Shown here: positions 40,745 through 47,745 of the stretch, piece after piece | How the letters are laid out: each line of letters begins with the position of its first letter | Position numbering within the stretch: position 1 is the first letter of the stretch | From: the human T2T-CHM13v2.0 reference genome, Homo sapiens | Direction: 5' to 3' (one strand) | Assembly (NCBI RefSeq): GCF_009914755.1 | Contig: NC_060944.1 | DNA length: 64,000 bases | Position numbers and translations under genes: made by a program | Notes under the pieces: model-generated | What the model was told of the DNA's origin: nothing | Seen by the model: the letters and a program-made list of their open reading frames with translations, nothing else | The model's database searches: none

Positions 40745-40897
40745 TCACTCTTCAATACTCTTTTGTTTGCTTTGAGACTGAAATTTTACAGACTGCTTTG
40801 CAGACCTCTGCAAAAAGTATGTTCCAAGATGGACACCTATGAAAGATATCCCAGCTACAAGAAGCCAGTTCTTTCTAATCCAACTGGTATTTTTCAT
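40745..40897 (-). CDS. 50-aa single-TM microprotein uORF (uMKKS2-type; MKNTSWIRKNWLLVAG...QKSIEE)
   Basis: First ATG in exon 3 (G at -3); hydrophobic WLLVAGISFIGVHLGTYFL; AATAAA 6 nt after the stop. Confidence 0.85.
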   Translation of the reverse strand: MKNTSWIRKNWLLVAGISFIGVHLGTYFLQRSAKQSVKFQSQSKQKSIEE

Positions 40898-41275
40898 CTC
40901 TTCTTTCGATATGAAGCTCAGATTCAAAGCTGCTTCTTTACCTAATAAATAATAAAAAAAACATTTTAGAGAAATACTTCCCAAGCAGTTTGTAGACTGC
41001 AGTTTAATAATTTATTCTAATGCTCTGCTGCCTTTTTAGAAAAAGGAACTACTAACTGGCACAAACGTCCAGAAAATGAGAAAGGTAGACCAACTTTGAC
41101 TTAAAATTCCTTTATTCTTCAATAAATCCCCTCTACAAGAAAAAGTGCTTGTATTTCAGTGATTCTGTAAGGCACAACAACATGGCTAGAAAGCTTACAG
41201 CACAGTTATTTGAATATGGCATGCTTCTAGGAGAGAAATGCTACGATATAAAACAGAGAATTAGGTCTCTGAGTC

Positions 41276-41573
41276 TTTTTTTTTTTTTTTTTGAGATGGA
41301 GTTTCGCTCTTGTTGCCCAGGCTGGAGTGCAATGGCGTGATCTTGGCTCACCACAACCTCAGCCTCCTGGGTTCAAGCAATTCTCCTGCCTCACCCTCCT
41401 CAGTGGCAGGGATTACAGGCATGCGCCACCATGCCCAGCTAATTTTGTACTTTTAGTAGAGATGGGGTTTCTCCATGTTTGCCAGGTTGGTCTCGAACTC
41501 CTGACCTCAGGTGATCTGCCCATCTCTGCCTCCCAAAGTGCTGGGATTACAAGCGTGAGCCACTGTGCCCGGC
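41276..41573 (-). mobile_element. AluS
   Basis: TSD gtctctgagtctt. Confidence 0.95.
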
Positions 41574-43784
41574 AAGTCTCTGAGTCTTAAAAGAAGTCCC
41601 AAATATCTTTATTCTCCAACATGAAGATTTAATATTATGTTTTTATCTATAATTGTGGTTTGCTTGGAAACTTTAGGTTTGAACAGAAGTGCATTTATAT
41701 CAAGTCATGTTTGTAAATAATTATAAAAACAAGATAGCTGTTGGCATGTCTACTGCAGGAACTCACTAATGTATAGTCTATATTTAGCTGAATAATTCTG
41801 CACAACACATTGTACCAAAAAACAAACCATGTTTTAAACACCTGGCTAAAGTCAGAGCTAATTTTCTATCATTTTACGTTATCAATCAATGATTTTCAGT
41901 TTTGGAAATCCTAGTCAACGAATCCTCCCCAAAGCACTGGTTAATGACAGTACATGCAAAAACCAAGGGATATGCTGGATAACAACAACAATAAAAATAG
42001 GATCTGAGTTGCAATTCAATTTCAAAGTCTAAATACCATAAAATGTTATATATCAAAAGGACATGTAGAAATACAATTCTAGTTTCCTTAACAAGGTAGT
42101 GTCCTTGCTAAAAAAAAGTGTGCCTTGAGGCATAAATTCCTGACACATTAATAATAATGTGTGAAAAGAATAAAAACGTTAGATCATAGATCTTATCTGT
42201 TGAGGCCGGGTGTTTTAAAGGTATATTATTCGTTAGTATTTCCAGGAATATGCTGAGTATGGTAGTGTCCAGGAGAGCATTTAGCATAAATGAAACAAAT
42301 CTATTTAGCCTAAAGTACTTCCTAAAAGTAGGCTACAGCATAGTATGGTGATCAGACCAAAACCTTGATTTGAAGATGTGCAAAGAGGTGGGCAGAACAA
42401 GGGAATGTTATGCAAATGTTATTTTGGTTACCATTCCCAATTTAGCTAAAGGGCTGTAACCATGGCAACTGGGCCCAAATAAAGGGCAATGATGGTCAGC
42501 TTTCTTCCTGTGGTGATAAAGCTATTGTCAACTTTTGTATGGCATGAGGAGGGAAAGAAAAATCTGTTTATTGATGCCAGGAACAGCCAAGGTACTTAAA
42601 TATTTCAATGGCTATTACAGATTCAGCAAAATCTGAGAAATACATTTAAATGAAACCTCACAAAGTGACTTCTATATGTTAATTTGCACGTTAAAACTTA
42701 CATACACACCCCACAATAAAAACTATGATTAAGAAAATCGTTTTTCTAGTTAGAACATTTTCAATACTTAATAGTGTCATGTAACTTTTCAAAAACAGAA
42801 TGCCATGTTGGCACCTCTGTCAGTCTTACAGTAGTGAGACCAGTACACATATCTTTTGGCTAGTATTTCATTAAAATGACAAAGAAATCACTGAAAGTGG
42901 TAGTGACTCCCAAATCATTTTAAAGATGCCAAAACTTGTTGACCTGTGGTCACAGGTCTAGACCTGAACAAAAGAAGGTACAAGAAAGAGAAAAGAGAAA
43001 AAAAAACCAAACCACTGGGGCTGGTTTATAGAACATGTTTGGAAGTATCAGTTCAGCTCTATTAAAACTCTTTCTTCCTAAACAAGGTGCTCCATAATTC
43101 CAAGAGTTACCATTAGACGAATGGTCCTGACTATTCTTGGATGCACGGGCTTGGCAGATGGGTTTTTGTTGTTGTTGCAGTGATGGATAACTTAATTAAA
43201 ATAACAGTAAAACTTGCATGACTTCTTCTAAATTAAGAGGTGCACTATAAAATATGATTTAAAGAAAATACAAACAGGTGAAAGTTTTTCCTAAAAGCAA
43301 ATGGAGTTCTTTGGCAAAAAGAATGATTATAGGTATGAGGTAAGAAATACACAAGGTAAGCTGGGGTCCTTTTCTGCCCAAAAGTAAGGATGTTATTAAA
43401 GACTACGTGGGTCATATCACAAGGACAAAGGAAAAACAACAACAGGAGTCAACTTGGAGAGGATCCAAAATGGGACAACTTTAGCATTAAAAAAAAACAT
43501 GACGACAGCAACAGATTAATATAACTGAAATAAATGCAAACCCACAGGTTCATACTAACACCAAAAACAAAAACCCTAAGTGGCTTGAGCACTCATTATT
43601 ATAAAAACCAATAAAGGGAATTACAGGGATAAAACATTAATCTTGCTTTCCTTGTATAAATGCATTTTGGGGTAACTGAATAGTTGACGATGGAAAGTTG
43701 TTCCAGCTAATAAATGGAGAAGGAATGATAGAATTTGAGCAGCATCATTTGGCAACCCCTAATGAAATAGTGCATTAGACCCAT

Positions 43785-46267: not shown

Positions 46268-47072
46268 ACAGGGTCACAGTTCTTTATCTGAAACTCCTTG
46301 GGCCAGATGAGTTTCATAATTCAGAATTTCTTAGATTTTATAAATACAATATAGTGTATATAACATACATAATCAATATAATCATAATATAGTATAACGC
46401 TATATTATAGTAAATCAAACGTGACAAATGCCAATAAAATTTCTGCAGTGAAACTCAATTTTCATATTAAGTGGAATAAAAACAGTGACCTCCCCCATTT
46501 ATCTATGAGGGATATGTTCCAAGACCACCCAGTGGATGCCTGAAACTACATATAGCACTAAACCCTATATATACTATGTTTTCTTCTTGTACATACATAC
46601 CTATGATAAAGTTCAATTTATAAATTAGGCACAATACTCCTGTGCTTTGGGTACATTGTGAAGTAAAGTAACAGTTACCTGAACATAAGCGCGGAGATAC
46701 CACCACAGTTGATCTAACCCAGAGTGCTGCTAAGTGACTAACGAGCAGGTAGACAGACAAGGGAATGACTCACATCCTGCGTGGATGAAGTAGAATATCC
46801 CAGGATTTCATCATGCTACTCAGAAAGGTGCATAATTTAAAATTTATGAATTGTTTATTTCTGGAATTTTCTATTTAATATTTTCAGACTAGGGTTGACT
46901 GCAGGTAACTGAAACTGCAGAAAGCCAAACTGCGGATAAAGGGAGACAACTGCACTGCAAATTGCCTCATGTCAGTTAAGATCAAGTTTTGCTGTCAAAG
47001 GAGTGAGGATAAAATGTTTTGGTTTTGAGAACTTTTTGAATTTTGGAATTATGGATAAGGGACTATAGACCT
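46268..47072. mobile_element. MER44/Tigger7-type element (~46483-46953) nested in another Tigger-class MITE
   Basis: gttccaagacc..cagtggatgcctgaaact; outer inverted ends ...tttatctgaaa / ggataagggacta. Confidence 0.7.
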
Positions 47073-47553
47073 AAATTATATAACTTCATCCTCTTTATTT
47101 CAGTGACTCTCAAAAGTAACAAATTATGGTCAAGCTAAAATAGTTGATGTTAAGAAATGAATACAATTAGTTTTGTATTGTTAAAAAAAAAAGAACACTA
47201 ATAGAAGAAAATAATCTTGTATAAATTTGGACTTTTGTGATATGTAATGGTAAGGAGTCAGGGGCTCCTTTGCACACATTCATGATCCTGGTGATGCTGC
47301 TAGCAAAACTGCTCTTTCCCTTTGCATTCAATTGACTGCCAGGCAAGTGTCAAATGTCTCTGCACAACGAACTTTTCTAGAAACAACTGCAGAATAGTAT
47401 TTTGCCAGTGGGTCACAATAAAAACAACAGGTAACTTACCAATTTAGGCTTTTCCTTGCCAGAGATCTAAAAGATTGAGTTTCCCATTGTTGGAATGTGC
47501 CATATGATTAACCAACCAGATTAAATGGAACTTACCTGAAGATTGCAAGCCTG

Positions 47554-47745
47554 CTACTTCCCCTGGATTTGGCTCTTCTGAAGATTTGAAAGTCCCAGAC
47601 TATCTTGCTCAGGAATGTCGTCGTTTTTAGGTATTTGGAAAACAGGGCTGCTTTTGATTCTGTACCACCCCAAATGTATGAGCCCAACTAAAGGGACCAT
47701 AACAACCAAAACTTTGTAGTCTCTCCACAAGTTCCGAAGGCTCAT
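47554..47745 (-). CDS. 63-aa single-TM microprotein uORF (uMKKS1-type)
   Basis: Wholly inside exon 2; A at -3; hydrophobic VLVVMVPLVGLIHLGWY; consistent with the reported mitochondrial MKKS uORF peptide (from memory). Confidence 0.88.
   Translation of the reverse strand: MSLRNLWRDYKVLVVMVPLVGLIHLGWYRIKSSPVFQIPKNDDIPEQDSLGLSNLQKSQIQGK

What the first reader, a model, noticed from the sequence alone, without database searches (positions are those of the whole stretch)
40745..47745. The two MKKS-leader microproteins look like paralogues sharing an intramembrane HLGxY motif
Seen: MSLRNLWRDYKVLVVMVPLVGLIHLGWYRIKSS (63 aa) aligns from Met1 with MKNTSWIRKNWLLVAGISFIG-VHLGTYFLQRS (50 aa). R8, L13-V14 and G21 are identical, HLG-x-Y matches with one gap, and both have a basic/aromatic N-terminus and a Q/S/K-rich tail. 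Each ORF starts close behind the acceptor of its own exon. Inference: an ancient exon duplication produced two co-expressed single-pass membrane peptides that may form a heterodimer. One His per helix is the architecture by which cytochrome b559 alpha/beta bind heme, so heme or metal ligation, or respiratory-complex assembly as in the bicistronic sloth1/sloth2 (SMIM4/C12orf73) pair, is a testable idea. The uORF peptides are reported as mitochondrial (from memory); I do not know of the paralogy/His-pair idea being described.
Basis: partly seen in the sequence, partly recalled or inferred. Interest (0 to 1): 0.85.

Follow-up and report, generated by a model that had tools for sequence, protein, structure and literature searches.

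The report
Two look-alike MKKS-leader mitochondrial microproteins
Two already-known small mitochondrial membrane proteins encoded ahead of the MKKS gene do resemble each other and each keeps one histidine in its membrane helix, but the likeness is too weak to show they are duplicates, and nothing yet supports a heme-binding pair.

Summary
They are the published uMKKS1 (63 aa) and uMKKS2 (50 aa), annotated on one short transcript that ends 27 nt after the uMKKS2 stop.

The likeness is real but weak:
- BLASTP gives 18.5 bits, E 0.002.
- hhalign gives probability 28-34%, P about 5e-4.
- Nulls that keep the N-tail/helix/tail layout give p 0.06 for the human pair, 0.12-0.16 for family consensus sequences and about 0.009 for profiles (10 of 1080 permutations).
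- The human pair is in the top 8% of 2508 cross-family pairs.

His is kept in 44 of 44 uMKKS1 and 56 of 57 uMKKS2 sequences. The "HLGxY" Tyr occurs in only 8 of 44 uMKKS1 sequences.

uMKKS2 reaches a shark. uMKKS1 was found only in placentals, so "ancient" is unsupported.

I put paralogy at about 0.35. I found no paper stating the idea, but the primary 2013 paper is not held.

The parts
47554..47745 (-). uMKKS1 / LOC128706665 coding sequence (63 aa plus TAG stop), wholly inside MKKS 5'-leader exon 2
   Evidence: Translation. RefSeq NM_001394148.2 CDS. 44 placental homologues, 56-94% identical to the human peptide.
47662..47712 (-). uMKKS1 hydrophobic segment, aa 12-28. The invariant His24 codon CAT is at 47676-47674.
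   Evidence: Best Kyte-Doolittle windows start at residue 12. His 44 of 44, G26 44 of 44, W27 44 of 44, P18 44 of 44. Codon read.
40745..40897 (-). uMKKS2 / LOC128706666 coding sequence (50 aa plus TGA stop), at the 5' end of MKKS exon 3, upstream of the MKKS ATG (40524-40522)
   Evidence: Translation. NM_001394149.2 CDS. 57 homologues from placentals to a shark.
40811..40867 (-). uMKKS2 hydrophobic segment, aa 11-29. The His23 codon CAT is at 40831-40829. G21-x3-G25 spacing.
   Evidence: Hydropathy. His 56 of 57, T26 56 of 57, Y27 56 of 57, G25 54 of 57, G21 50 of 57. Codon read.
47536..47766 (-). Exon 2 of the MKKS leader (231 nt), AG acceptor and GT donor; carries uMKKS1 and a 43-codon overlapping ORF
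   Evidence: Annotation plus splice dinucleotides. Not in a masked repeat and unique in the genome.
40718..40941 (-). Terminal exon of the short bicistronic transcript (the 5' part of MKKS exon 3, cut by early polyadenylation)
   Evidence: NM_001394148.2 and NM_001394149.2 have identical exons 61112-61226, 47536-47766 and 40718-40941.
40734..40739 (-). AATAAA poly(A) signal starting 6 nt after the uMKKS2 stop codon, 16 nt upstream of the annotated transcript end
   Evidence: Pattern scan. Further hexamers at 40711-40706, 40588-40583 and 40562-40557.
61112..61226 (-). Exon 1, shared by MKKS NM_170784.3 and the two microprotein transcripts

Best explanation
These are the two published MKKS-leader microproteins, uMKKS1 and uMKKS2.

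Shown here: one short mRNA (exon 1, exon 2, and the first 224 nt of exon 3) ends at an AATAAA that starts 6 nt behind the uMKKS2 stop. It carries both ORFs, 62 nt apart. Each ORF encodes a 10-11-residue basic/aromatic N-tail, a roughly 18-residue hydrophobic helix starting at residue 11 or 12, a basic flank and a polar tail. Each family keeps one His at the 13th residue of the hydrophobic stretch.

Inferred: the two are best treated as separate families. uMKKS2 is at least as old as jawed vertebrates. uMKKS1 was seen only in placentals. Their likeness is the same layout plus a W...[I/V]-H-L-G core. I read that mostly as common constraints on N-anchored mitochondrial membrane peptides, and possibly a common partner, not as demonstrable common descent.

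[quoted passage not shown] In the long MKKS mRNA the same ORFs act as translation-repressing uORFs.

My reading of the conserved His is a polar helix-helix contact residue. Its chemistry is unknown.
For: Transcript structure and poly(A) signal.

Same layout: hydropathy maxima start at residue 12 in both for a 15-aa window, and at 12 and 11 for a 19-aa window.

Weakness of the similarity:
- Layout-preserving shuffles give p 0.062 for the human pair and 0.12 and 0.16 for consensus pairs.
- The human pair scores 36 against a mean of 28.9 over 2508 cross-family pairs, which puts it in the top 8%.
- The HMM of one family scores the other's human member at 6.0 and 4.9 bits, E 100 and 270 at the size of the PDB sequence set.
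- The uMKKS1 HMM scores placental uMKKS2 at a median 4.3 bits, but marsupial at 0.8 and non-mammal at 1.1.
- Two of the eight BLAST identities (Y28, S33) rest on minority residues. Y28 is found in 8 of 44 uMKKS1, and its uMKKS2 partner S32 in 4 of 57.
- The family-specific invariants differ: M16, P18 and W27 in uMKKS1; N10, W11, A15-G16 and T26 in uMKKS2.
- The gapped alignment puts an indel inside the helix.
- The two exon regions share no DNA similarity beyond 7-18-nt matches.

Different phyletic ranges.

Function: passages of PMC13577902, PMC11837024, PMC7066179 and PMC7530721.
Against: The profile-profile score is above layout-matched chance: 10 of 1080 permutations reach it, and 0 of 400 whole-column permutations do. 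hhalign P is 4-6e-4. Ungapped offsets 0 and +1 stand out from the 11 other offsets tested, with summed profile scores of -3.6 and +4.9 against -13.5 to -57.0. Offset +1 pairs the invariant W7 with W6, H24 with H23 and G26 with G25 without any indel. Two unrelated mitochondrial single-pass peptides in neighbouring exons of one leader is itself a coincidence that duplication would explain. The accepted Sloth1/Sloth2 paralogy rests on evidence of the same kind (27% similarity, similar size, one TM, one transcript). The absence of uMKKS1 outside placentals comes from a word-indexed search of annotated proteins only.
Confidence: 0.5

Rival explanations
1. True paralogues by tandem exon duplication, with uMKKS2 as the older copy. 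On this view the uMKKS2 exon was copied upstream in the lineage leading to placentals. The copy (uMKKS1) then diverged fast, keeping the layout and the W...H-L-G core and gaining a new Pro-rich tail.
For: The ORFs lie in adjacent exons of one transcript, each whole within its exon. The N-tail length and helix start are the same. hhalign P is about 5e-4, and 10 of 1080 layout-matched permutations reach the score. The near-invariant W, H and G coincide at offset +1. uMKKS1 was found only in placentals (44 of 44), while three marsupial clusters have uMKKS2. The uMKKS1 profile is closest to placental uMKKS2, as a placental-stem copy would be. Sloth1/2 is a precedent.
Against: Identity is only 20-25% in the joint alignment, although each family has since changed slowly. 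Within-family identity to the human peptide is 56-94% for uMKKS1 and 50-96% for uMKKS2. That requires a burst of change right after the copy. Consensus-level similarity is not significant (p 0.12). The tails share nothing convincing and there is no DNA similarity. The pattern 'closest to placental uMKKS2' is also what selecting the human pair for its likeness would produce by chance. An Atlas lead to a mostly arthropod cluster for uMKKS1 (score 0.93, 208 shared features), if real, would make uMKKS1 old and contradict this timing.
Confidence: 0.35
2. One reading: an ancient duplication gave two peptides that form a heterodimer, with one His from each helix ligating heme or a metal (as in cytochrome b559), or acting in respiratory-complex assembly like Sloth1/Sloth2.
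For: His is kept in 44 of 44 and 56 of 57 sequences and sits at the same depth, the 13th residue of each hydrophobic stretch. The two are co-transcribed. uMKKS1 knockout lowers oxygen consumption (PMC13577902 passages). A computed interactome links LOC128706665 to complex IV components or assembly factors (bioRxiv 10.1101/2024.10.01.615885 passage).
Against: There is no sequence link to cytochrome b559 or any Pfam family at E up to 10, nor to any solved structure at E below 0.5. [quoted passage not shown] In the 34 of 44 uMKKS1 sequences with His at position 28, there are two His four residues apart (H24, H28), not one. One rodent uMKKS2 has Pro in place of the His (P0097). 'Ancient' is not borne out by the ranges found. 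The review's table shows '0/12' for uMKKS2 against '6/17' for uMKKS1; I take the first figure to be mass-spectrometry support, but the column header was not in the passage. No interaction data were found.
Confidence: 0.06
3. The ORFs matter mainly as cis-acting uORFs that hold down MKKS translation. On this view the peptide similarity is irrelevant.
For: Start-codon mutants raise reporter output, and frameshift mutants show that the effect depends partly on the peptide sequence (passages of PMC11837024, and PMC7530721).
Against: A dedicated short transcript lacks the MKKS ORF altogether. The peptide sequences are conserved over their whole helices, to shark for uMKKS2. uMKKS1 yields thousands of spectra in public proteomics data against 14 for MKKS protein, and more than 1000 in the brain cohort where MKKS protein was not detected; it also has a knockout phenotype.
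Confidence: 0.05

Closest known systems
Sloth1/Sloth2 (human SMIM4 and UQCC6/BRAWNIN), a bicistronic pair of mitochondrial single-pass peptides in Drosophila (PMC9681215; abstract and passages read)
   Same: Two small ORFs on one transcript. Each has one predicted membrane helix, similar sizes and mitochondrial location. The sequence similarity is subtle (27% there; 8 of 23 in the BLAST block and 22% over the joint alignment here).
   Different: Sloth1 and Sloth2 were shown to bind each other and to be needed for complex III assembly. Nothing of that kind is known for uMKKS1 and uMKKS2. Here the pair also sits upstream of a third, unrelated ORF (MKKS) in a longer isoform. There was no Pfam match to any family. 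The UQCC6 cluster appears only as a weak Atlas look-alike of uMKKS1 (0.82).
Cytochrome b559 alpha/beta (PsbE/PsbF): one His per single helix, heme bridged between two subunits (recalled textbook knowledge, not from a call)
   Same: Each single-pass helix has one conserved His at a similar depth, and the two gene products are co-expressed.
   Different: There is no sequence relation (no Pfam hit at E up to 10). The compartment differs. Most uMKKS1 orthologues carry a second His four residues on. Dimer formation and heme binding are untested.
Other peptide-coding uORFs with mitochondrial products (MIEF1 and SLC35A4 uORF microproteins; named in passages)
   Same: They are conserved uORF-encoded peptides with a life of their own in mitochondria, and they also dampen main-ORF translation.
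   Different: The MKKS leader carries two such ORFs and has its own early poly(A) site, which makes a uORF-only mRNA.

Membership tests
Bicistronic paralogous mitochondrial smORF pair (Sloth1/Sloth2 type) | Two small ORFs on one mature transcript | tested here: met
   NM_001394148.2 and NM_001394149.2 have identical exons. The ORFs are 62 nt apart in the spliced RNA.
Bicistronic paralogous mitochondrial smORF pair (Sloth1/Sloth2 type) | Each peptide has one transmembrane helix | tested here: met
   Hydropathy only: the best 19-aa windows score 1.83 (aa 12-30) and 1.68 (aa 11-29).
Bicistronic paralogous mitochondrial smORF pair (Sloth1/Sloth2 type) | Sequence similarity between the two peptides that indicates common descent | tested here: inconclusive
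   BLASTP E 0.002. hhalign probability 28-34%. Layout-matched nulls: p 0.062 for the human pair, 0.12 and 0.16 for consensus pairs, and 10 of 1080 for profiles. HMM cross-scores 4.9-6.0 bits.
Bicistronic paralogous mitochondrial smORF pair (Sloth1/Sloth2 type) | Both peptides in mitochondria | not testable with these tools
   Literature passages only: PMC11837024, PMC7066179, PMC13577902 for uMKKS1.
Bicistronic paralogous mitochondrial smORF pair (Sloth1/Sloth2 type) | The two peptides bind each other and share a loss-of-function phenotype | not testable with these tools
No interaction report was found.
Bicistronic paralogous mitochondrial smORF pair (Sloth1/Sloth2 type) | Sequence membership in the SMIM4 or UQCC6 families | tested here: not met
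   No such Pfam hit for the human peptides or for any of the 44 and 53 members scanned at E up to 10.
Cytochrome b559-type bis-His heme-bridged heterodimer | Sequence membership in the cytochrome b559 Pfam family | tested here: not met
   No hit at E up to 10. No photosystem or cytochrome chain at E below 1 in the PDB sequence search.
Cytochrome b559-type bis-His heme-bridged heterodimer | One conserved His in each single-pass helix at matching depth | tested here: met
   H24 in 44 of 44 and H23 in 56 of 57 sequences, each the 13th residue of its hydrophobic stretch. Caveat: 34 of 44 uMKKS1 sequences have a second His at position 28.
Cytochrome b559-type bis-His heme-bridged heterodimer | Heterodimer formation and heme ligation | not testable with these tools
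Conserved-peptide uORF that represses the main ORF | ORF upstream of the main ORF in the same mRNA, with a conserved peptide sequence | tested here: met
   MKKS NM_170784.3 and NM_018848.3 contain both exons upstream of the ATG at 40524. Conservation is shown.
Conserved-peptide uORF that represses the main ORF | Represses downstream translation | not testable with these tools
   Reported in passages of PMC11837024 and PMC7530721.

The most novel reading that the evidence does not exclude
uMKKS1 and uMKKS2 are diverged tandem duplicates that pair through the His-bearing faces of their helices. The resulting heterodimeric mitochondrial membrane module uses the two histidines, one from each peptide, to hold heme or a metal, or to dock onto a cytochrome oxidase assembly intermediate. 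That would make uMKKS2 the missing partner of the abundant microprotein now linked to respiration.
Probability: 0.06. Interest if true: 0.8.

Novelty: already known. Interest (0 to 1): 0.3.

Why it matters
uMKKS1 has recently gone from curiosity to a well-supported protein. It gives thousands of spectra, is listed as core canonical in PeptideAtlas, shows a respiration defect on knockout, and is lower in Alzheimer cortex (passages). Its mechanism and partners are unknown.

If the neighbouring uMKKS2 were its paralogue and partner, the locus would be a vertebrate counterpart of the fly Sloth1/Sloth2 pair, and the conserved histidines would be the first residues to mutate.

What this check adds:
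- The shared conserved core is W...H-x-G, not HLGxY.
- uMKKS2 is the phylogenetically wider family.
- The statistical case for common descent is borderline.
- Heme is pure conjecture.

The idea is cheap to test, but nothing here makes it likely.

Tried and rejected
Pfam scans of the two human peptides, and of all 44 and 53 aligned members, gave no consistent family. The most frequent match was ECM10, in 15 of 53 members with best E 0.028, below its cut-off.

PDB sequence searches with the uMKKS1, uMKKS2 and joint profiles gave best E 0.77, 0.51 and 2.3, so there is no relative with a solved structure.

Whole-genome six-frame searches of the reference with both profiles found only each family's own locus plus weak hits. 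These were chr1 at E 2.85, chr4 at E 4.36, and chr7 at E 0.0255 with an in-frame stop. Neither profile found the other's exon at E up to 10, and no third paralogue appeared.

DNA comparison of the two exon regions with 200-bp flanks gave only 7-18-nt matches. A transposon origin for exon 2 found no support: it lies in no masked repeat and is unique in the genome.

The Atlas gave nothing above 0.85 for uMKKS2. For uMKKS1 it gave the protein's own chordate clusters plus a mostly arthropod 58-aa cluster (0.93).

The length filter of the search for homologous proteins (0.55-1.75 times the query length) means longer fusions or shorter fragments were not seen. Candidates known from samples alone were left out before scoring: 4, 11 and 79 of them.

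Nucleotide identity over the aligned codons is 44 of 96, against 26.6% in other registers. I rejected it as independent evidence because the register was chosen on the amino-acid match.

The Mann-Whitney p is not cited as a probability, because the sequences are related.

Literature: no paper stating paralogy or a His pair turned up in searches, or in the passages read. The primary paper (Akimoto et al. 2013) is not held. Supplements are closed. They may hold the taxonomic range of the MKKS uORFs (PMC7530721 Table S2) and the predicted complex IV partner (bioRxiv 10.1101/2024.10.01.615885).

Rows dropped: A5 holds 53 of the 57 uMKKS2 sequences. P0036, P0039, P0078 and P0094 were left out because they are long isoforms or truncated or aberrant ends. 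The script alignments used all 57, with N-terminal extensions trimmed to the conserved Met.

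
Full report
WHAT IS THERE. They are RefSeq LOC128706665 and LOC128706666. NM_001394148.2 and NM_001394149.2 have identical exons (61112-61226, 47536-47766, 40718-40941), so one short transcript is annotated for both ORFs.

That transcript ends 27 nt after the uMKKS2 stop and 16 nt past an AATAAA at 40739-40734. This is upstream of the MKKS start codon at 40524, so the RNA carries the two small ORFs and not MKKS. 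Each ORF lies within one exon. Its ATG is 21 nt (exon 2) or 44 nt (exon 3) behind an AG acceptor. The ORFs are 62 nt apart in the spliced RNA.

The spliced exon 2 plus short exon 3 contains only four ATGs. One starts a 43-codon overlapping ORF in weak context. The others are the uMKKS1 start, its in-frame Met16, and the uMKKS2 start.

WHAT IS KNOWN. Reviews and later studies describe these as uMKKS1 and uMKKS2 of Akimoto et al. 2013. The primary paper is not held. The following comes from passages I read.
- Both are in mitochondrial membrane fractions, the uORFs repress MKKS translation, and an early poly(A) site makes a uORF-only transcript.
- Both tagged peptides localised to mitochondria in HeLa cells (PMC7066179).
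- The repression depends partly on the peptide sequence (PMC7530721).
- GENCODE annotated the leader CDS as a separate gene on PhyloCSF evidence (PMC6886504).
- A 2026 study (PMC13577902) finds that the 63-aa peptide is the dominant protein product of the locus in brain.
- PeptideAtlas lists it as core canonical (PMC12865046).
- A computed interactome links it to complex IV components or assembly factors, without naming the partner in the text (bioRxiv 10.1101/2024.10.01.615885).

None of these passages mentions a relation between the two peptides or their histidines. Searches found no paper that does.

THE FAMILIES. Three protein searches gave 44 uMKKS1 sequences and 57 uMKKS2 sequences, the human ones included. 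All 44 uMKKS1 sequences are from placental mammals. The uMKKS2 set spans placentals, three marsupial clusters, turtles, lizards and geckos, crocodilians, a frog, a bird and a shark.

The search uses shared five-residue words, annotated proteins of named sources only, and a length window. A blank outside placentals is therefore weak evidence. Even so, "ancient duplication" has no positive support.

- In uMKKS1: V12, M16, P18, I23, H24, G26, W27, S33, F36 and P39 are invariant. G21 is kept in 43 of 44. Position 28 is His in 34, Tyr in 8, Asn in 1 and Gln in 1.
- In uMKKS2: W6, L12 and L13 are invariant. H23, T26 and Y27 are each kept in 56 of 57. G25 is kept in 54 of 57 (Ser in two marsupials, Val in the shark). 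L24 is kept in 42 of 57 and G21 in 50 of 57.

The core conserved in both families is His, plus Gly two residues later, plus a Trp 17 residues upstream.

HOW STRONG IS THE LIKENESS.
- BLASTP of the human pair: 18.5 bits, 8 of 23 identical, E 0.002 for the single comparison.
- hhalign: probability 28%, E 6.3e-4 for the first alignments; probability 34%, P 4.2e-4, score 21.6 for the full families.
- HMMER: the uMKKS1 model scores human uMKKS2 at 6.0 bits and the uMKKS2 model scores human uMKKS1 at 4.9 bits. That corresponds to E 100 and 270 in a set of 177635 sequences. The best chance hits of these models in the PDB set reach 12.8-13.6 bits.

Both peptides have the same layout, with hydrophobic stretches starting at residue 11 or 12. 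I therefore used nulls that keep the N-tail, the helix and the C-tail apart.
- For the human pair, Smith-Waterman score 36 is reached by 6.2% of such shuffles, against 0.6% of whole-sequence shuffles.
- For profiles, 4 of 400 and 6 of 680 column permutations reach the observed hhalign score, with means 11.4 and 11.1 and SD about 3.
- The human pair is a favourable sample. The mean over all 2508 cross-family pairs is 28.9, and only 8% reach 36.
- Consensus sequences score 30 (placental uMKKS2) and 29 (non-mammal), with layout-matched p 0.12 and 0.16.
- The uMKKS1 model scores placental uMKKS2 at a median 4.3 bits, marsupial at 0.8 and non-mammal at 1.1.

In favour of a real relation, ungapped offsets 0 and +1 stand well apart from the 11 other offsets tested. 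That gap would turn G-x3-G of uMKKS2 into G-x4-G.

ORIGIN. Two readings remain.
(a) uMKKS1 is a tandem copy of the older uMKKS2 exon that diverged very fast. This fits the adjacency, the identical layout, the profile-level signal, the placental-only range and the greater closeness to placental uMKKS2.
(b) The two are unrelated, and the likeness is what two N-anchored mitochondrial peptides can share by chance or constraint. This fits the insignificant consensus-level scores, the different family-specific invariants, the unrelated tails, the lack of any DNA similarity and the regression towards no similarity away from the human pair.

Exon 2 is not repeat-derived as far as the mask shows, and it is unique in the genome. 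An Atlas look-alike cluster of mostly arthropod 58-aa proteins (0.93, 208 of 256 features) would make uMKKS1 old and favour (b). I could not fetch or test it.

I put (a) at about 0.35 and (b) at about 0.5. The published Sloth1/Sloth2 paralogy rests on the same class of evidence.

MECHANISM. Shown here: a dedicated bicistronic RNA, two single-pass peptides of the same layout, and a near-invariant His at the 13th residue of each hydrophobic stretch.

From the literature: mitochondrial location, outer-membrane proximity, a respiration phenotype for uMKKS1, and uORF repression of MKKS.

Inferred: an N-terminal anchor with the polar tail facing the cytosol, and the His as a polar contact within the membrane near the tail-side interface.

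Heme or metal ligation is not supported by anything I could compute. There is no cytochrome b559 or other Pfam relation and no solved relative. Outer-membrane proximity fits poorly, as does the second His (H28) in most uMKKS1 orthologues, and one rodent uMKKS2 has Pro instead of His.

VERDICT. The objects are already known. The paralogy idea is plausible, apparently unpublished, and unproven. "Ancient" and "HLGxY" do not hold as stated. The heme idea is untested conjecture.

Noticed in passing
window 47627-47758 (-): A 43-codon ATG ORF starts 13 nt upstream of the uMKKS1 ATG in another frame and in weak context (C at -3), and overlaps uMKKS1. It may be the third uORF that reviews call uMKKS0; that assignment is my guess and comes from no call.
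   Followed up: partly
spliced RNA from window 47536-47766 plus 40718-40941 (-): There is no ATG in any frame in the 206 nt between the in-frame Met16 codon of uMKKS1 and the uMKKS2 start. That would ease leaky scanning or re-initiation to reach uMKKS2. I did not test it against shuffles.
   Followed up: no
L004:1501-1584 (-), which is G000 chr7:84976698-84976781: An intergenic stretch 77 kb from SEMA3E translates to a 22-residue open stretch ending in a stop that resembles uMKKS1 residues 16-38. It includes a P-L-V-G and an H-L-G motif, and the match continues past that TAA stop (E 0.0255 genome-wide, 25.9 bits). In the MAFFT alignment to exon 2, 104 columns are invariant (mean column identity 66%). 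It could be an old relic or chance.
   Followed up: partly
uMKKS1 residue 28 (window 47662-47664) across alignment A4: 34 of 44 placental uMKKS1 sequences have His at position 28, giving an H24-x3-H28 pair on one helix face. The remaining ten have Tyr (8, including human), Asn (1) or Gln (1).
   Followed up: partly
P0097, P0089, P0091, P0099 (uMKKS2 homologues): One deer-mouse uMKKS2 has Pro in place of the conserved His, together with a divergent tail. Two marsupials have Ser and the shark has Val at the Gly after the His.
   Followed up: no
uMKKS1 (window 47557-47745, -), Atlas search: A cluster of 103 hypothetical proteins of 58 aa, mostly arthropod, looks like uMKKS1 to the language model (0.93, 208 of 256 shared features). 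Weaker look-alikes (0.82-0.84) are all small mitochondrial inner-membrane proteins: CEBPZOS, the MNLL subunit family, SMIM20, UQCC6 and ATP synthase subunit J. The sequences were not obtainable.
   Followed up: no
window 40557-40711 (-): Three further poly(A) hexamers (ATTAAA at 40711-40706, AATAAA at 40588-40583 and at 40562-40557) lie between the uMKKS2 stop and the MKKS start codon. This fits the reported multiple early poly(A) sites.
   Followed up: no
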